Assembly (NCBI GenBank): GCA_019120295.1
Contig: DWVI01000002.1
Location: forward strand, 80,869 to 144,868
DNA: 64,000 nt
Direction of reading: 5' to 3'
DNA from: Candidatus Onthoplasma faecipullorum
Lineage (GTDB): Bacteria; Bacillota; Clostridia; Christensenellales; UBA1242
Shown here one piece after another: positions 41,005-62,719 of the stretch; position 1 is the stretch's first letter, and every line of letters starts with the position of its first letter. The notes below the pieces were generated by a model that searched no databases, was not told where the DNA came from, and saw only the letters and a list, made by a program, of their open reading frames with translations. The position numbers and the translations under genes are program-made.

Positions 41005-42220
41005 TAAGAAAAATAAATCTAATGTTGCATTAAATATAGTTGTTTCTATTTTGGTTTTAGTGATTGGCGCGCTAGCAGGTTTTGTTGGATACACATATTT
41101 CACTCTTCCACTAAGTGAAGAACTTATAATTACAGAAGATGTGTTTTATTCGTACAATGATAACGAAGAATTGTCAGCAATACCACTAACCAACGAACCA
41201 GGCGAAGTTAGTGTGCATTTTCTAGAACTTGGAAACAAATACACAGGCGATTGCACATACATAAAAGTTGGAGATGTGGACATTTTAATAGACTGTGGTT
41301 CAAAATCTAACAGCGTTGCAACGGTTAGCGAATATCTAAATCAATATGTTACAGACAACACGCTTGAATACGTTATTATCACTCACGCCCACACCGACCA
41401 CTATGCAGGGTTTGCAACAAGCGAAAAAGTTGAAAGCATATTTGATTTATATGATTGTGAAACAATAATCACATTTTCGCAAACCACAAGCGGTAAAGAA
41501 GACACTGCAACCTATAAAAACTACCTTCGCGAATTAAATGCAGAAATTGTAGCAGGTGCAGAGCACTTTACAGCGCTTGAATGTATTAACGAAACAGAAA
41601 ATGAAAATGGTGTGAAAGCACAAAAAATGTGGCCGCTAAATGAAGAATATGATGTTACACTTGAAATTTTAGATAGTTATTATTATGAAAACAGAGCAAG
41701 CAGTGAAAATGACCATTCAGTTTGCGTTATGGTAAACCAAGGGACGAGAGACGATGCAAAACATTTCCTATTTACAGGCGACTTAGAAGCAGACGGTGAA
41801 GAATATTTAGTTAAATTAAACGACCTTCCGCAAGTTGATTTATACAAAGCAGGTCACCACGGAAGCAAAACTTCTTCAACCGATGTTTTACTAGATGTTA
41901 TTCAACCAAAAACTGTTTGCATTTGTTGTTGTGCTGGAAGCAGTGAGTACACCGATAACCCACTAAATCAATTCCCTACCCAAGAATTTATCGACCGCAT
42001 GGCAATAAGAAATATTGAAAACGTATATGTTACAACATTATGTGTGGATTATAAAAATAATGAATTCACTTCATTCAATGGAAACATTGTTGTTATATCA
42101 CTTCCAGCAAGTTCAACCGCTGAAATAAAATTTGGAATAAATTGTTCAAATAACAACACAATTTTAAAAGACTCAGAATGGTTCAAAAATAACCGCGTTT
42201 GGAATAGTGCGACCACTTGA
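40997..42220 (+). CDS. Membrane-anchored metallo-beta-lactamase-fold protein (ComEC C-terminal-domain-like)
   Basis: The 407-aa product has an N-terminal TM anchor. MBL motifs are present: ILIDCGS, ITHAHTDHYAG, FTGDLE and YKAGHHGSKTS. Confidence 0.8.
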   Translation: MASKKNKSNVALNIVVSILVLVIGALAGFVGYTYFTLPLSEELIITEDVFYSYNDNEELSAIPLTNEPGEVSVHFLELGNKYTGDCTYIKVGDVDILIDCGSKSNSVATVSEYLNQYVTDNTLEYVIITHAHTDHYAGFATSEKVESIFDLYDCETIITFSQTTSGKEDTATYKNYLRELNAEIVAGAEHFTALECINETENENGVKAQKMWPLNEEYDVTLEILDSYYYENRASSENDHSVCVMVNQGTRDDAKHFLFTGDLEADGEEYLVKLNDLPQVDLYKAGHHGSKTSSTDVLLDVIQPKTVCICCCAGSSEYTDNPLNQFPTQEFIDRMAIRNIENVYVTTLCVDYKNNEFTSFNGNIVVISLPASSTAEIKFGINCSNNNTILKDSEWFKNNRVWNSATT

Positions 42221-42391
42221 TAATAAATTATGAAAGCAATTAAATATTGAAATATAAATAAAAAAATAAGGCAAAAATTTACCGCCTTATTTTTTTGTTT
42301 TAAAAAATTTATTAAAATTTTATAAAAAATCATTAAAATTTAGTGAAAATTTATAATTTTTTAGCAAAATATACAAAATTTAGTAAAATTT

Positions 42392-43120
42392 TTAATCTTT
42401 TTTATCTTTACGAGTGAAAATGTTTAGAAATTTTGCAAGGGTTAAAGTTATGCCGTCCGCGTGAACGATTGCGTATCTTTTTAGCGCTGCTTTACCAAAG
42501 ATTGTTAGTCCTGCAATTACAGCGGAAACAACAGCAGATATTAAAACCACGGTAAAATCACCCGCACTTTCAATCACAATTTTTGCAAGTATACTTGCTC
42601 CTGCTGAACCCGATAGAATTCCGCACACATCACCTAACACGTCCGAACAAATGGAACTCACTCTATCTGCATTTTTAACAAGCGCAATCGCCTGTTTGCT
42701 ACCCTTCACTTTTCTTGACGCCATTGCCGTAAACGTTTCTAAATTACTTGTTGCAACGGCTAAGCCAATCATATCCGTTAAAACTGCTATTGAAATAAAC
42801 ACTAAAATTACAATCACAGCCAAAACAATATTTGCATTGGATAATGTTAATTCACTAATAACGCTAAACGAAAAAGATAGCACTAACGCCATGATTAGCA
42901 CTTTAACCGGCCAAACCCAAGCGGACTGCTTTTTAGGTCTGTTTTTTGATTTTTGCTCGGCGTTTTGCTTCGCGTCCTTTACTCGTTTGACACCTTCACC
43001 ATTTTTCGTTTCATTTTCGCTTGTTGTTTTATCGTTTAAACTTTCGTCTGATTGCTCTAAATCAGGTTCTTTTTTATTTAAATCTTCAATTTGTTTGTTA
43101 CTATCAATATCTTCTTTCAA
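42392..43120 (-). CDS. Four-TM membrane protein with a Lys/Glu-rich N-terminus; OapA-like by context
   Basis: Four hydrophobic segments are seen: WVWPVKVLIMALVLSFSFSVI, ANIVLAVIVILVFISIAVLTDMIGLAV, VLGDVCGILSGSAGASILAKIVI and FTVVLISAVVSAVIAGLTIFG. The start is uncertain. The tracked ORF starts at a GTG (43150). The TTG at 43120 has an aagga SD 8 nt upstream. Confidence 0.6.
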   Translation of the reverse strand: MKEDIDSNKQIEDLNKKEPDLEQSDESLNDKTTSENETKNGEGVKRVKDAKQNAEQKSKNRPKKQSAWVWPVKVLIMALVLSFSFSVISELTLSNANIVLAVIVILVFISIAVLTDMIGLAVATSNLETFTAMASRKVKGSKQAIALVKNADRVSSICSDVLGDVCGILSGSAGASILAKIVIESAGDFTVVLISAVVSAVIAGLTIFGKAALKRYAIVHADGITLTLAKFLNIFTRKDKKD

Positions 43121-43175
43121 TTTCTTTTCCTTATAATTATATATAAACACACGTTATGTGATAAATTTTAAAATA

Positions 43176-43741
43176 ACGAAGGCAATTTTCAAGGTAAACC
43201 TTGCGGCATAGGTTCGGTTGGATTTCCCAATTTTGCACTTGTCCGTTACCAGCCAAGCGGTTTCCCTTTACGCAAAACTTGCACCGAATCGCCACTTAGA
43301 CCACACTATAATCCCCTGAAAATCTCTATCGAACAGCCTAGAAGTTTTCCTTAACAACATCAAACAAACTTATCTTTATTTTGCGCTCGTGATTTCAAAA
43401 GCAACTTAAAACGCTCGTGTACTTTGAAACGAATTAAGTTGTCGCTTAATCCCAACACTCACACTCAAAGCAGGCTACACTGCACATAACTTTCGCCATA
43501 TGCAGGTTCAATCCTTAGTGATAGAACATCTCTAAATAGCAACATTTCTACCAGATAAGGTCTCCACGATAATTGGGGGCGAACACATATGCCGTTACGT
43601 ATCTCCCAAAAATCTTAACTCCCAGCACCAGCCCCAGTTTGGGCAACCAAGGCCAGCACCACGAACTTCACAGTTTTGCCAGCGATGCTTATTTCGGCAC
43701 CCTCGTTTGTTCTAGTTGACTAGAATACTGCGCCTTCGTAC
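43176..43741 (-). ncRNA. Large (~565 nt) structured non-coding RNA candidate, OLE-class by size and context
   Basis: No ORF of 60 aa or more occurs in any frame across about 800 bp. G+C is clearly above that of the flanks. The 5' end ACGAAGGC (43739-43732) pairs with the 3' end GCCUUCGU (43183-43176). Internal hairpins include UUCUAG-UCAA-CUAGAA. The RNA has a dedicated consensus promoter. Confidence 0.55.
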
Positions 43742-43747
43742 AATAAT

Positions 43748-43776
43748 ATATTATCATTTTACCACAAATTTGTCAA
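43748..43776 (-). promoter_or_regulatory. Consensus sigma-A promoter of the large ncRNA candidate
   Basis: On minus, TTGACA (43776-43771), a 17-nt spacer and TAATAT (43753-43748). The TSS is predicted at about 43741. Confidence 0.65.
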
Positions 43777-43975
43777 GTAAGGTAAAATTTACAAATTATA
43801 ATTAATCATTATTTATTTCATAAAATTTTTATAAAATAATTAAAAAATTATAATATTTTTAATAAATTTATCTATTTTTTCGTATTTTTATTAAATTTTT
43901 TTTATTTTTAATAATATTTTTTAGTTCGTTTTTTTATTTTTAATAATTTGTAAAATTTGAATATTTAAAATAAAT

Positions 43976-44698
43976 TTACAAACTAAAACCGCCGTCAATT
44001 GTTATAATTTGACCGGTTATAAAACTCGCTTTCTCACTAATTAAAAATTCCACCAAATTTGCACAATCAACCGGTTTTCCAATTCTATTTAGTGGTGTTG
44101 ACGAAACAACTTCTTTAACTGCATCAGGTGATAGGTTGTTATTCATTTTTGTGTCAATGAGCCCTGGACACACAACATTTACATTTATGTTTGACGGACC
44201 CAACTCTTTTGCAAGGGACAATGCAAAAGTGTTTAACGCTCCTTTGCTTGCTGAATACACACTCTCGCAACTTGCACCCACTTTCCCCCACATTGAAGAG
44301 ATGTACGCAATTTTACCATATTTATTTGTAATCATATTTTTAATGGCGCATTTTGTAATGTTGAAATTTGATTTAAAATTTGAATTCATAATATAGTCAA
44401 ATTCTTTTTCGCTGACGTCTTGAACAAGGTTAATTTTACTAACCCCAACGGCTGAAATTAACACATCAATTTTGTTAAATTTTGAAATAATTTCGTCAAA
44501 AAGTTTTTTAACGCTACTAAAATTTGACAAATCACACAAAAAAGTGTGCGACTCGCATTTAATTTTTGCCTGCAAATCACTTAACCCTTTTTCATTTTTA
44601 TAGCCTAGTAAAATTAACCTGTTATTTGCCTTATCTAATACGCGTGCTATCATAGAGCCAATTTCACCAGACGCTCCTGCAATGATAATTGTTTTCAT
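43976..44698 (-). CDS. Short-chain dehydrogenase/reductase (FabG-like)
   Basis: MKTIIIAGASGEIGS is a Rossmann motif. The catalytic YSASKGA and PGLIDT motifs are present. The start was set at the ATG at 44698. An extended -10 (TGTTAGAAT, 44714-44706) ends 7 nt before the ATG and there is no SD. Confidence 0.85.
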   Translation of the reverse strand: MKTIIIAGASGEIGSMIARVLDKANNRLILLGYKNEKGLSDLQAKIKCESHTFLCDLSNFSSVKKLFDEIISKFNKIDVLISAVGVSKINLVQDVSEKEFDYIMNSNFKSNFNITKCAIKNMITNKYGKIAYISSMWGKVGASCESVYSASKGALNTFALSLAKELGPSNINVNVVCPGLIDTKMNNNLSPDAVKEVVSSTPLNRIGKPVDCANLVEFLISEKASFITGQIITIDGGFSL

Positions 44699-44955
44699 AT
44701 TTAGTATTCTAACAAAAAAATAAAAAAAATAAAATAAATTTAACACATATAACTAAAAACAATGAATAATAAATCATTTTTTTACTAAATTGCCATGATT
44801 TTGTGTTTAATAACAAATATTTAATAAATTATTTTCTAGCACTTCTTAACTTTTATGTTTTATAAATTATTTTACTGCTTTATAAAACAACAAATATTTA
44901 TAATAACTAAAAAAAACACAATAAATAAAAATTGAACAATCAAAGCGGTTTTGCC

Positions 44956-60436: not shown

Positions 60437-62719
60437 TTACTTTAAATATGTTCTAGCCACAAGCACGGTCATATCATCACGCGCTTGCATTTCGTTTAGC
60501 CTTAGTGCTTCATTTAATATACTTTCAGCAATTGTCTGCGGATTGTTTGATGCAAGTTTACTAACATATTCAATCATATTTTCTTGACTTACAAACGCGT
60601 CTGTTATTCCATCAGTTGCTAAAATAACTATATCTTTTGTGGTGATTGCACAGTTTTTCGTACTTGGCTTAATATTATCTAATGCGCCTATTGGAAGTGC
60701 TCCACCTTCAACTATCTCTACTCCATTTTCGCGTTTAATAAGCCCAAACGGAGCACCAACTTTTATAAAGTCACCAATCTCTCTATCAAGGTCTAATATG
60801 CACACGTCCAAAGTGGAATAATTTTCTTGATTGTTAATCGCAAGCAGTTTATTCACGCTTTCTAAAATTGTTGCATTATCAAAACCAGCTTTGTAAAAAT
60901 TTTCAATTAGTCCAAGCGTCATTGCGCTCATCATATGTGCAGATTTCCCACTTCCCATACCGTCGCACAGTGCAAGCAAAAATCTATTTTTATTTAACCT
61001 AATAATGCTATGGCAATCTCCACACTCAATGTTACCTGCTTTGTTAACACTGCTTAACCCAAACACACAATCATATTTAGGTCTTGCTTTCATTGAAACT
61101 GAAATAAAATTGCCGTCTTCAAGTGGCTCAGCTTTTTCAATTTGCATATTTACTCTTAAGCATTCACCAACAACACGCTCTAAAATAGGATAAATCTCAG
61201 CCCCACCTTTAACAACCACTATGACGGACACATCTTTGTCCTTCTCATTATATAATAACACTTCTTTGCACTCAATGTTTGAAGACAAAAGTTTAGATAT
61301 TATTTTATTTTCTTTTGCGATGTCAAAACTTATGTTTGCGTCTATTTCTTCACCCATATCGAGTAGTAACCTACTAACCGCACCCATTTGGTCGGCAAGT
61401 AAAATTTTAACATTATTTACGTCTGCAAGCATAGACTTATATTGCCTATATTCGTCTACCAGGCGATTGATAAGTGTAATCAAATTGTTAACTTTTGCGC
61501 ATCTATTTGAAAGTGAACTTGGAATATCAAGTAAGGTAATTTTTCCCTTTGTAACAGCAAGTTCAATTAGCATTTCGAGATTGGATTTATTCATTGTGCC
61601 AAGCGAACGCGCACACCTATTTTTATCTAAACAATCTTTGCAACAATTATTCATAACTTCACGCTCTAAAATAGCAACTAATTCTTCTTTGTTTAACTCT
61701 TTTTTAACCATGTTGAGATGTATTTGTTTCATATCTAAAAATACATTGCTAAGTTCACTCATTCGCTTGCGTATATTTTTTCTCGATTGATTTATTAAAT
61801 TTCTAGTTGAAATCTCACTTTTTTTAACATAAACAAAATCTGCAATGTTATTTAATAGTTTTTTAGGAATACACAAAAATATCAAAGCGCTCACAACAAT
61901 CGGAAGAAGCGCATACAAACAGTTCCAACTCATATCCATAAAGAAATATTGAATAAAAACGTCTGTTAAAATTACAACCAAACAAATTTTCCATTTATGT
62001 GGAAGCGCAAACAAACTAGACAGTAACGTTAAAATTGCAAACTCCGCCACCACTATTAAGGACATATCATATAACGCCACTCCAAGCGAAAATGAAATAG
62101 TCACGGCAAGAACAAGTGTTGGGTTATTAACGGCAAGCATTAAAAAAATCAAAGTCATTAACACTAGCCTATAAACAGAAAAATTAACGATGTTGACAGG
62201 TGCTAACCCCAACCCTAAAATCGCTATGAAAAATAAAAAACATATGCTTTCGTCAAGCGTAAGTTTAAAACAATTTTTCTTTAAATCAACACTTTGAAAC
62301 ACCACAATAAAAACATACAAACATATAAGCCCTAAAATTATATAAATTAAAAGGTCTTTTGTGTTTTTGTAGTTATAATATATGTAAGTTACAAGTGATA
62401 ACAAATAAAAACAAAAAACAGTTATTAAATTTATTTTCTTTTTGGCAAACTTGAAAATATAAAACATAATTAACCCAACCGCAACAGATGTGATAGAAAC
62501 ATATAAATTATTTAGGCTCATGTTGATTAACATTGACGCACAAAGCGTGAAGATAGCGAGCAACTTTTCTTCCATTCCAACATAAATTCCAGCGAAGAAA
62601 AAAGCAAACAAAAACGGACTAACCGAACTAACGCGAGCATTTGCAAGTAGTATACAAATTAAAAACAACACTAAATACTTTAAAATAAATTTATAACTAA
62701 TCTTTTTTGTTTTTTGCAT
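60437..62719 (-). CDS. spoIIE: Stage II sporulation protein E (membrane PP2C phosphatase)
   Basis: The 760-aa product has about 10 N-terminal TM segments. A C-terminal PP2C domain is present (GDCHSI...LCDGMGSGKSAH...ILATDGITDAF...RDDMTVLV). The position next to tilS is the same as in bacilli and clostridia. Confidence 0.9.
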   Translation of the reverse strand: MQKTKKISYKFILKYLVLFLICILLANARVSSVSPFLFAFFFAGIYVGMEEKLLAIFTLCASMLINMSLNNLYVSITSVAVGLIMFYIFKFAKKKINLITVFCFYLLSLVTYIYYNYKNTKDLLIYIILGLICLYVFIVVFQSVDLKKNCFKLTLDESICFLFFIAILGLGLAPVNIVNFSVYRLVLMTLIFLMLAVNNPTLVLAVTISFSLGVALYDMSLIVVAEFAILTLLSSLFALPHKWKICLVVILTDVFIQYFFMDMSWNCLYALLPIVVSALIFLCIPKKLLNNIADFVYVKKSEISTRNLINQSRKNIRKRMSELSNVFLDMKQIHLNMVKKELNKEELVAILEREVMNNCCKDCLDKNRCARSLGTMNKSNLEMLIELAVTKGKITLLDIPSSLSNRCAKVNNLITLINRLVDEYRQYKSMLADVNNVKILLADQMGAVSRLLLDMGEEIDANISFDIAKENKIISKLLSSNIECKEVLLYNEKDKDVSVIVVVKGGAEIYPILERVVGECLRVNMQIEKAEPLEDGNFISVSMKARPKYDCVFGLSSVNKAGNIECGDCHSIIRLNKNRFLLALCDGMGSGKSAHMMSAMTLGLIENFYKAGFDNATILESVNKLLAINNQENYSTLDVCILDLDREIGDFIKVGAPFGLIKRENGVEIVEGGALPIGALDNIKPSTKNCAITTKDIVILATDGITDAFVSQENMIEYVSKLASNNPQTIAESILNEALRLNEMQARDDMTVLVARTYLK

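What the first reader, a model, noticed from the sequence alone, without database searches (positions are those of the whole stretch)
42392..43776. A ~565-nt structured RNA candidate with its own promoter, immediately upstream of a 4-TM protein gene (OLE/OapA-like arrangement)
**Seen directly.**
- Positions 43151-43975 contain no ORF of 60 aa or more in any frame.
- Positions 43176-43741 are much more GC-rich than the surrounding intergenic DNA, which is more than 85% A+T.
- A TTGACA, 17-nt spacer, TAATAT promoter (minus) predicts a TSS at about 43741.
- The first transcribed nucleotides, ACGAAGGC, are perfectly complementary to GCCUUCGU at 43183-43176. The two ends of the RNA therefore close a helix, which is a hallmark of large folded RNAs.
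- Several local hairpins and duplicated words (CACGAGCG twice, GCUGGUGCUGG twice) occur inside.

**Context.** The next gene on the same strand (42392-43120/43150) encodes a protein with exactly four hydrophobic helices.

**Established knowledge.** OLE RNA is about 600 nt. It occurs in anaerobic or extremophilic Firmicutes and is characteristically followed by oapA, which encodes a small 4-TM protein that tethers the RNA to the membrane.

**Inference.** This locus is an OLE-class ribonucleoprotein, or an unnamed large RNA with a similar layout. I could not recall enough of the OLE consensus to verify it at the sequence level.
Basis: partly seen in the sequence, partly recalled or inferred. Interest (0 to 1): 0.7.

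Follow-up and report, generated by a model that had tools for sequence, protein, structure and literature searches.

The report
OLE RNA with its oapA gene

Summary
Window 43163-43752 (-) matches Rfam RF01071 (OLE RNA) over all 616 model positions at 354.6 bits (gathering score 50, E 1e-100), and no other RNA family matches. The next gene (42392-43120, -) is OapA. It has four hydrophobic helices and an invariant DxxxD motif. It gives only a sub-threshold CNNM match. Its best solved-structure matches are CorB. Its homologues sit directly downstream of an OLE gene in 76 of 78 assessable loci. The terminal helix it spotted covaries strongly (95.5% paired, 5 of 8 pairs with double changes, 0 of 500 shuffles). 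In a chicken-gut metatranscriptome a 528-nt contig covers just the RNA at about 60 times the depth of the only oapA contig. One deviation: the P13 hairpin, which is the OapB-binding site, is missing. It is also missing in 37 of 39 relatives. This reduced form has already been published for gut Clostridia with small genomes. Verdict: already known, low interest.

The parts
43748..43776 (-). Sigma-70-type promoter of the ole-oapA unit: TTGACA (43776-43771), 17-nt spacer ending in TG, TAATAT (43753-43748). The predicted start is about 43741-43739.
   Evidence: One search found the motif. The strict motif recurs in 19 of 39 related loci, 17 with the extended TG, and 12 at the window's spacing from the RNA. 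The transcription start was not mapped.
43176..43741 (-). OLE RNA gene, about 566 nt from the predicted start to the end of the terminal helix. The Rfam match, which includes unpaired flanks, is 43163-43752.
   Evidence: RF01071 at 354.6 bits against a gathering score of 50, E 1.5e-100, model positions 1-616. G+C is 0.44. Metatranscriptome contigs cover 43205-43732 and 43182-43726.
43732..43739 (-). 5' strand of the terminal closing helix (ACGAAGGC).
   Evidence: It pairs with 43176-43183. Across 39 homologues 95.5% of cells are paired and 5 of 8 pairs show compensatory changes.
43176..43183 (-). 3' strand of the terminal closing helix (GCCUUCGU).
43280..43281 (-). Two-nucleotide linker (CA) at the place where the Rfam model has a 21-position element that I assign to the P13 hairpin, the primary OapB-binding site. 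The hairpin is deleted here.
   Evidence: The cmscan alignment shows *[21]* in the model against *[2]* in the sequence. The same short linker is in 37 of 39 related OLE RNAs. The role of P13 is from PMC7936274. Loss of the OapB site in variant OLE RNAs is from PMC11332333.
43143..43160 (-). Weak hairpin (CACAU-AAC-GUGUG, 43160-43148) followed by UUUAU, between OLE and the oapA ribosome-binding site. It may be a leaky terminator.
   Evidence: RNAfold gives -2.6 kcal/mol. Similar 3-5-bp hairpins followed by U or A/U-rich sequence are seen at this position in about 9 of the closer relatives. At least 13 of the more distant loci have a strong intrinsic terminator here. Function is inferred, not shown.
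42392..43120 (-). oapA, 242 aa, starting at TTG 43120 with AAGGA (43132-43128) 7 nt upstream. Residues 1-66 are a charged, disordered N-terminal extension, followed by four transmembrane helices. The DxxxD motif is at residues 160-164.
   Evidence: TTG is the only in-frame start codon in the first 68 codons. Public gene callers used GTG 43150 (252 aa; P0001), which has no ribosome-binding site.
42260..42296 (-). Intrinsic terminator ending the ole-oapA unit (15-pair stem followed by a T-run).

Best explanation
The locus is an ole-oapA operon.

**What is shown here.**
- A promoter-like motif that recurs in related loci lies just upstream of the RNA.
- The roughly 566-nt sequence matches the OLE architecture end to end.
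- A covarying helix joins its 5' and 3' ends.
- The OLE stretch is assembled as metatranscriptome contigs at far higher depth than the one oapA contig.
- The downstream gene encodes OapA: a small four-helix membrane protein distantly related to the transmembrane (CNNM) domain of CorB/MpfA Mg2+ transporters, with the OapA-specific DxxxD motif.

**What is inferred from published work on other species.** By analogy with Halalkalibacterium halodurans and the Clostridium acetobutylicum cryo-EM structure, OapA dimers bind the RNA near P2 and P4a and hold an RNA dimer at or in the membrane. The resulting particle helps the cell cope with stresses such as excess Mg2+, short-chain alcohols, cold and poor carbon sources. 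It may do this by regulating ion transport through OapA.

**Lineage-specific feature.** In this lineage the RNA lacks the P13 hairpin that binds OapB. The particle is therefore probably the reduced version already described for gut Clostridia with small genomes.
For: - **RNA identity.** Rfam RF01071 matches at 354.6 bits, full length, and is the only family matching at E up to 1.
- **Related loci.** 38 of 40 related loci scanned with Rfam have a full-length OLE match, upstream of the oapA homologue. With a profile built from these, 76 of 78 assessable loci have one.
- **Terminal helix.** It covaries.
- **Promoter.** The motif is present and recurs in relatives.
- **Expression.** In metatranscriptome run X24, a 528-nt contig equals 43205-43732 with 1 mismatch at depth 158.6. 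The only oapA contig has depth 2.7. In run X30, a 546-nt contig from a close variant spans 43182-43726.
- **OapA.**
  - It has four hydrophobic helices.
  - D160 and D164 are invariant in 28 homologues.
  - The CNNM match is sub-threshold (17.9 bits against a cut-off of 28.4), as published for OapA (PMC11332333).
  - The top three PDB fold matches are MtCorB 7m1t and 7m1u at probability 1.00. 7M1U is the same structure reported as the best match for H. halodurans OapA (PMC11332333).
- **Mechanism.** The functional statements come from PMC12265935, PMC11332333, PMC12286853 and PMC7936274.
Against: - Nothing here contradicts the identification.
- All functional statements are transferred from H. 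halodurans and C. acetobutylicum. No experiment exists for this lineage.
- The RNA evidence comes from assembled contigs of mixed communities, so exact ends and true abundance are not established.
- One low-depth contig from a run of uncertain type extends to 43757, past the predicted start.
- The P13/OapB site is absent, so the particle's composition must differ from the model organism's.
- The biochemical activity of any OLE RNP is still unknown in the literature.
Confidence: 0.96

Rival explanations
1. The structured region is only a long cis-acting 5' leader of the oapA mRNA, a regulatory UTR rather than a stable stand-alone RNA.
For: OLE and oapA share one promoter and one strong terminator. 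Only a weak hairpin separates them in the window.
Against: - The sequence is a full-length member of a family known to act as a stable trans-acting RNP component (PMC12265935).
- The OLE contig depth is about 60 times that of the oapA contig.
- In at least 13 of the more distant relatives a strong intrinsic terminator lies between OLE and oapA, so the RNA is made as a separate product there.
Confidence: 0.02
2. The gene is a decaying, non-functional OLE remnant in a reduced genome. The loss of the P13 hairpin would be a sign of this.
For: P13, the primary OapB site, is deleted. The literature notes rare defective OLE genes, and that reduced-genome gut clades carry trimmed OLE RNAs (PMC11332333).
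Against: - The bit score (354.6) is within the range of its relatives (330-417).
- The same P13-less form is kept in 37 of 39 relatives spanning 60-92% identity, with compensatory changes.
- oapA is intact, with all invariant residues.
- The RNA is represented in metatranscriptome assemblies.
Confidence: 0.02
3. It is a different large structured RNA (ROOL, GOLLD, raiA, RNase P, tmRNA, group II intron) or an unnamed class that merely resembles OLE in layout.
For: None found.
Against: A permissive cmscan of 43000-43950 against all 4227 Rfam families at E up to 1 returns OLE only. The whole 64-kb window has no other match above a gathering score.
Confidence: 0

Closest known systems
OLE RNA (Rfam RF01071), as characterised in Halalkalibacterium halodurans and Clostridium acetobutylicum
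   Same: - End-to-end match to the covariance model.
- Similar length: about 566 nt here, 577 nt for the C. acetobutylicum RNA used for cryo-EM (PMC12286853).
- The conserved sequence blocks are present, for example GCAGUAUUCUAGUCA, GUGUAGCCU, GGGAUUAUAGUG and GGGAAAUCC.
- oapA lies immediately downstream on the same strand.
- The nearest relatives are Clostridia (Bacillota).
- Metatranscriptome contigs of the RNA have high depth.
   Different: - It lacks the P13 hairpin (GNRA loop plus bulge) that binds OapB.
- It appears to have its own promoter directly at the 5' end, whereas the H. halodurans gene cluster is transcribed as one polycistronic RNA (PMC12265935).
- The neighbours (ymfI, a ComEC-like MBL gene) are not the classical OLE neighbourhood.
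- The host is a gut commensal known only from metagenomes.
OLE 'variant 1' of Fernando & Breaker 2024 (PMC11332333), common in the TANB77 clade of uncultured gut Clostridia
   Same: [quoted passage not shown]
- The host is an uncultured gut Clostridia lineage known only from metagenome assemblies.
   Different: - Variant 1 is also described as having shortened P7, P8 and P9. Here the region I take to be P7-P8 aligns to the Rfam model without a large deletion.
- I could not compare it with the 2024 consensus because figures are not held.
- I could not confirm that the host belongs to the GTDB order TANB77.
OapA (OLE-associated protein A) and its distant relatives, the CNNM domains of MpfA/CorB/CorC Mg2+ transporters
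   Same: - Four transmembrane helices.
- The DxxxD motif.
- A sub-threshold PF01595 match.
- The CorB structures 7m1t and 7m1u are the best solved-structure matches.
- No CBS or CorC/HlyC domains.
- Linkage to ole.
   Different: It carries an N-terminal extension of about 60 aa that is charged and predicted to be disordered (pLDDT below 50). Most homologues, at about 185 aa, lack it. Only the closest relatives (P0001-P0003, L001) share it, and a few other lineages have unrelated extensions.

Membership tests
OLE RNA (RF01071) | Scores above the curated gathering threshold of the family covariance model, over the full model | tested here: met
   354.6 bits against 50, model positions 1-616, E 1.5e-100.
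OLE RNA (RF01071) | About 600 nt with many highly conserved nucleotides and helices supported by covariation | tested here: met
   The RNA is about 566 nt. There are 154 invariant columns among 39 homologues at 60-92% identity. The terminal helix was tested explicitly and covaries. The other helices were judged only through the covariance-model score.
OLE RNA (RF01071) | oapA immediately downstream on the same strand | tested here: met
   oapA starts 56 nt after the terminal helix. The same arrangement holds in most of the 76 (of 78 assessable) related loci that carry OLE, with a median gap of 77 nt.
OLE RNA (RF01071) | Host is a Bacillota species, typically anaerobic or extremophilic | tested here: inconclusive
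The nearest loci are Clostridia and 'Candidatus Onthoplasma' MAGs from animal guts. The sequence occurs in chicken gut metagenomes.
OLE RNA (RF01071) | P13 hairpin with GNRA tetraloop and single-nucleotide bulge (primary OapB site) | tested here: not met
   The 21 model positions are replaced by 2 nt at 43281-43280. The literature already recognises OLE variants without this site (PMC11332333), so this defines a subtype and does not exclude membership.
OLE RNA (RF01071) | K-turn near P5 that binds OapC or bS21 | not tested
   The P5/P6 region aligns to the model, but I did not evaluate the alternative k-turn pairing.
OLE RNA (RF01071) | Abundant cellular RNA | tested here: inconclusive
   Metatranscriptome contig depth is 158.6 for OLE against 2.7 for oapA. 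Contig depth in a mixed community is a poor measure of abundance.
OLE RNA (RF01071) | Forms a membrane-localised ribonucleoprotein and an RNA dimer | not testable with these tools
   This needs biochemistry or imaging. It is known only for H. halodurans and C. acetobutylicum (PMC12265935, PMC12286853).
OapA | Small membrane protein with four transmembrane helices | tested here: met
   Hydrophobic stretches at about 66-94, 96-125, 160-183 and 188-214. AlphaFold helices at 69-95, 98-124, 151-184 and 189-219, with block-mean pLDDT 72-91.
OapA | DxxxD motif, which CNNM domains lack | tested here: met
   D160-V-L-G-D164. Both aspartates are invariant in 28 homologues. The criterion is from PMC11332333.
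OapA | Distant similarity to the CNNM domain (PF01595), and a CorB-like fold | tested here: met
   PF01595 at 17.9 bits, below the cut-off of 28.4. Foldseek's top three hits are MtCorB 7m1t_B, 7m1t_A and 7m1u_A at probability 1.00, and CorC 7cfg is at rank 5. The Foldseek E-values are weak (0.02-0.4), and sequence searches of the PDB find nothing.
OapA | No CBS-pair or CorC/HlyC domains, which separates it from MpfA | tested here: met
   The protein is 242 aa with no such Pfam match.
OapA | Lacks the conserved proline characteristic of CNNM domains | not tested
   I made no alignment to CNNM domains.
OapA | Gene linked to ole | tested here: met
   76 of 78 assessable homologue loci carry OLE, directly upstream in most of them.
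OapA | Binds OLE RNA cooperatively as a dimer | not testable with these tools
   This needs binding assays.
OLE variant 1 (PMC11332333) | OapB-binding nucleotides at the end of P13 are missing | tested here: met
OLE variant 1 (PMC11332333) | Shortened P7, P8 and P9 stems | tested here: inconclusive
   The region I take to be P7-P8 aligns to the Rfam model without a large deletion. The distance from the GUGUAGCCU block to the GGAAAACU block is about 120 nt across most of the clade and about 90 nt in L031 and L042. The 2024 full-length consensus figure was not available for comparison.
OLE variant 1 (PMC11332333) | Host in the TANB77 clade, with a genome lacking OapB and OapC | not testable with these tools
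   Only 64 kb of the genome is available. The GTDB order of the related MAGs could not be retrieved.

The most novel reading that the evidence does not exclude
In this sub-lineage the reduced OLE particle has been rewired.
- The RNA is made as a primary transcript from its own promoter, with the closing helix starting a few nucleotides after +1.
- A leaky hairpin sets a high RNA-to-OapA ratio.
- The charged N-terminal extension of about 60 aa, found only on OapA of the window and its nearest relatives, takes over a role otherwise supplied by OapB and P13. That role could be chaperoning or tethering domain 2 of the RNA.

If true, this would be a naturally minimised two-component OLE RNP.
Probability: 0.08. 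Interest if true: 0.35.

Novelty: already known. Interest (0 to 1): 0.12.

Why it matters
It matters little beyond correct annotation. OLE RNA and oapA have been known since 2006 and 2011. Their presence in uncultured gut Clostridia, including forms without the OapB site, was catalogued in 2024 (2,822 Bacillota hits; PMC11332333).

The modest value is threefold:
- It confirms that a sequence-only reader can recognise an OLE locus from first principles.
- It gives metatranscriptome evidence that this trimmed OLE is present as RNA at high depth in the chicken gut.
- It adds a compact, P13-less example with an apparently dedicated promoter. That could be useful to groups trying to define the minimal OLE RNP, whose biochemical function is still unsolved.

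Tried and rejected
- **PDB sequence searches.** Searches with the protein alone and with a 28-sequence profile found nothing. The CorB relationship appears only at the fold level.
- **NCBIfam.** It has no OapA model; there were only chance-level hits.
- **First read-laying run.** It worked after I shortened the stretch.
- **P13 and P7-P9 spacing by regular expressions.** This failed for most loci, so I replaced it with a MAFFT alignment.
- **Published name of the terminal helix.** I could not confirm that the published consensus calls it P1. The 2006 and 2011 papers are not held, and the text of the held papers does not say. The Rfam structure line leaves both ends unpaired.
- **GTDB placement of 'Candidatus Onthoplasma'.** I tried to place it in TANB77 from the naming paper, but neither the held text nor the supplement contains the name.
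- **Functional link to neighbours.** I considered a link to ymfI upstream or to the ComEC-like MBL gene downstream. They accompany ole-oapA in only 7 and 16 of 80 loci, so I dropped the idea.
- **MpfA in the window.** I looked for an MpfA-type CNNM transporter among 21 of the larger window ORFs scanned with Pfam and found none. A 64-kb window says nothing about the whole genome.
Full report
**1. What is at the coordinates.**
The minus strand of 42200-44200 reads, in order:
- the end of an upstream gene (43976-44746);
- about 230 nt of extremely AT-rich spacer;
- a promoter-like motif;
- a stretch of about 566 nt with normal base composition and no long ORF;
- a short AT-rich spacer with a ribosome-binding site;
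- a 242-codon ORF (42392-43120);
- a strong intrinsic terminator (42296-42260).

- The only ORFs in 43151-43975 are 52 and 48 aa.
- G+C is 0.44 in 43176-43741, against 0.085 upstream and 0.164 downstream.
- The promoter is TTGACA, 17 nt, TAATAT at 43776-43748, and it also has an extended -10 TG.
- ACGAAGGC at 43739-43732 is the exact complement of GCCUUCGU at 43183-43176.

One small correction: the 11-mer GCUGGUGCUGG occurs once. Only GGUGCUGG occurs twice.

**2. Identity of the RNA.**
A scan of the whole window against Rfam 15 gives a single match above a gathering score. It is RF01071, OLE RNA, at 43163-43752 (-), 354.6 bits against a threshold of 50, E 1.5e-100, covering model positions 1-616 without truncation. 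A permissive scan of 43000-43950 at E up to 1 returns nothing else. That excludes ROOL, GOLLD, raiA, RNase P, tmRNA and group II introns.

The alignment shows the characteristic conserved blocks and stems of the family. One clear difference is that a 21-position element of the model is replaced by 2 nt (43281-43280). I assign that element to the P13 hairpin because it lies between the model's conserved GUGGUAAUCCAGU and UAAAGGGAAACC blocks. P13, with its GNRA loop and bulged nucleotide, is the primary binding site of the protein OapB (PMC7936274).

**3. Identity of the protein.**
The ORF most plausibly starts at TTG 43120. AAGGA lies 7 nt upstream, and TTG is the only in-frame start codon in the first 68 codons. 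The published hallmarks of OapA are all met.
- *Four transmembrane helices.* Hydropathy and an AlphaFold model (block-mean pLDDT 72-91 over residues 71-230) both show four.
- *DxxxD motif.* The motif is D160-VLG-D164, and both aspartates are invariant in an alignment of 28 homologues.
- *Weak CNNM similarity.* Pfam gives only PF01595 at 17.9 bits, below its cut-off of 28.4. The literature describes exactly this behaviour for OapA (PMC11332333).
- *CorB-like fold.* The three best solved-structure matches to the model are the archaeal CNNM protein MtCorB (7m1t_B, 7m1t_A, 7m1u_A; probability 1.00), with the CorC transmembrane domain at rank 5. 7M1U is the structure reported as the best match for H. 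halodurans OapA (PMC11332333).
- *No MpfA-type domains.* There are no CBS or CorC domains, so it is not an MpfA-type transporter.

**4. Comparative evidence.**
A search of one genome per species found 494 oapA relatives, and the 80 best loci were fetched.
- *OLE beside oapA.* Rfam finds a full-length OLE in 38 of the 40 loci scanned. A profile built from these sequences finds OLE in 76 of the 80 loci: 72 full length and 4 cut off by a contig end. Two of the four negatives have no upstream sequence at all. So 76 of 78 assessable loci carry the pair, with a median gap of 77 nt between the OLE match and the aligned part of oapA. Only L027 and L071 lack OLE within 3 kb.
- *Nearest relative.* This is L001, an uncultured Clostridia MAG. 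It is 92% identical in OLE and 82% in OapA, and it shares the flanking genes.

**5. The terminal helix.**
Across the 39 aligned OLE sequences the eight pairs are 95.5% paired, and five of them change on both sides. Examples are ACGAAGG/CCUUCGU, UAGAAGG/CCUUCUA, AUGAAGG/CCUUCAU, UUAAGAC/GUCUUAA and GUGGAGA/UCUCCAC. None of 500 column shuffles reaches the observed pairing, covariation score or number of double changes. Sliding the 3' strand by 1-3 columns drops pairing to 34-57%.

The Rfam consensus itself reads GUGGU...ACCAC at these positions but leaves them unpaired in its structure line. From memory, the published consensus draws a P1 at the termini. I could not verify that here. This is a real, conserved helix and is most likely already known.

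**6. Transcription.**
- *Promoter conservation.* The strict motif TTGACA (at most 1 mismatch), 16-18 nt, TAnnnT is found upstream of OLE in 19 of 39 loci. In 17 of these it has the extended TG, and in 12 the -10 element ends 14-15 nt before the conserved GCAG, as in the window. Most of the remaining loci show a TATAAT-like -10 hexamer, often with a TTGCA-type -35, at a similar distance by eye. In such AT-rich DNA a loose -10 match means little. The transcription start is inferred, not mapped.
- *RNA evidence.* In chicken-gut metatranscriptome X24, a 528-nt contig equals 43205-43732 with one mismatch at depth 158.6. The only oapA contig (42766-42968) has depth 2.7. In X30, a 546-nt contig from a close variant spans 43182-43726. 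The other high-depth pieces are conserved OLE segments from other species in the community. These are assembled contigs from mixed communities, so they show presence and rough extent. They do not give exact ends or true abundance.
- *Spacer between OLE and oapA.* The window has only a weak hairpin (43160-43148, -2.6 kcal/mol) followed by UUUAU. About nine of the closer relatives have a similar 3-5-bp hairpin, and at least 13 of the more distant loci have a strong intrinsic terminator at this position. A leaky stop that makes far more RNA than oapA message is a reasonable inference, but it is untested.

**7. Which kind of OLE.**
The P13 hairpin is absent in 37 of the 39 aligned sequences. Only L051 and L064 keep a hairpin there, and neither has a GNRA loop. 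Fernando and Breaker (PMC11332333) describe two reduced forms:
- "variant 1", common in the uncultured gut clade TANB77, with shorter P7-P9 and often no OapB site;
- "variant 2", common in RF39, lacking P7 and P8.

They also report that both clades largely lack OapB and OapC. The window's RNA fits variant 1 on the P13 criterion. On stem lengths I cannot decide, because its P7-P8 region aligns to the Rfam model without a large deletion.

For the host:
- the sequence occurs almost only in chicken gut metagenomes;
- the related MAGs are labelled Clostridia or 'Candidatus Onthoplasma', which NCBI places in Christensenellales incertae sedis;
- the GTDB order could not be confirmed.

**8. How it most likely works.**
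- *Shown here:* the sequence is an OLE RNA, it is present as RNA in gut samples, and an intact OapA gene follows it.
- *Inferred from the literature:*
  - OapA dimers bind palindromic sites in or near P2 and P4a and bring the RNA to the membrane.
  - The RNA forms a dimer whose long P3 stem may span the bilayer.
  - The particle protects cells against excess Mg2+, short-chain alcohols, cold and poor carbon sources.
  - OapA may be a divalent-cation transporter regulated by the RNA, which would play the role of the CBS and CorC domains of MpfA.

  These points come from PMC12265935, PMC11332333 and PMC12286853.
- *Inferred for this lineage:* the particle works without the P13-OapB contact.

The precise biochemical activity of any OLE RNP is unknown, and this window adds nothing to that question.

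**9. Context and side observations.**
The upstream gene is a YmfI-type EF-P 5-aminopentanone reductase (243.4 bits against a cut-off of 238). The convergent downstream gene is a ComEC-like metallo-beta-lactamase domain protein. They accompany ole-oapA in only 7 and 16 of 80 loci, so I do not infer a functional link.

OapA of the window and its nearest relatives carries a charged N-terminal extension of about 60 aa that is predicted to be disordered. Most homologues, at about 185 aa, lack it.

Elsewhere the window encodes Mfd, a CobW-like GTPase, GltX, TilS, RmuC, VanW, SpoIIE, and an uninterrupted 7,096-aa ORF with no Pfam match at all.

**10. Verdict.**
It is an instance of a long-known RNA-protein pair, in a form (no OapB site, gut Clostridia) that was already catalogued in 2024. 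Novelty: already known. Interest: low.

Noticed in passing
window 2974-24264 (-): A single uninterrupted ORF of 7,096 aa. Pfam scans of both parts (5,000 and 2,096 aa) return no family at E up to 1e-4. This is a giant orphan protein in what appears to be a gut Clostridia genome.
   Followed up: partly
window 42923-43120 (-), OapA residues 1-66: OapA has a charged N-terminal extension (15 K+R, 16 D+E) that is predicted to be disordered (pLDDT below 50). It is shared only with the closest relatives (P0001-P0003, L001). Most OapA homologues are about 185 aa and start just before the basic patch that precedes the first transmembrane helix.
   Followed up: partly
window 43143-43160 (-); the same position in L001, L006, L009, L010, L015, L016, L017, L025, L026: A small 3-5-bp hairpin followed by U or A/U-rich sequence recurs between OLE and the oapA ribosome-binding site in the close relatives. 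At least 13 of the more distant loci (for example L039, L054, L062, L079) have a strong intrinsic terminator there instead. This suggests that read-through into oapA is tuned differently between lineages.
   Followed up: partly
window 43976-44746 (-): The gene upstream of OLE passes the NCBIfam equivalog cut-off for YmfI, the EF-P 5-aminopentanone reductase (243.4 bits against 238). It lies near ole-oapA in only 7 of 80 related loci, sometimes on the other side.
   Followed up: yes
L064 (contig JBFXFT010000004.1), OLE at 2380-2996: A MAG labelled Spirochaetales carries ole-oapA and is one of only two loci that keep a hairpin at the P13 position. The literature reports a few non-Bacillota OLE hits and attributes them to gene transfer or assembly errors (PMC11332333).
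   Followed up: no
L027 and L071: Two oapA homologues with 3 kb of upstream sequence have no detectable OLE, by Rfam or by a clade-specific profile. They could be rearranged loci, or cases of oapA without an adjacent ole.
   Followed up: no
L020, L013 and L026, upstream of OLE: In these loci the promoter motif lies 33-39 nt from the conserved GCAG instead of 14-15 nt. The extra sequence contains a short inverted repeat (for example AUAUUCCUCGUUGGAAUAAU). This may be a lineage-specific 5' hairpin added to OLE.
   Followed up: no
window 1-64000: Apart from OLE, no Rfam family reaches its gathering score anywhere in the 64 kb: no tRNA, riboswitch or leader. A spoIIE sporulation gene is present at 60437-62719 (-). 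The 2024 profiling study reports that sporulation genes correlate with OLE.
   Followed up: no
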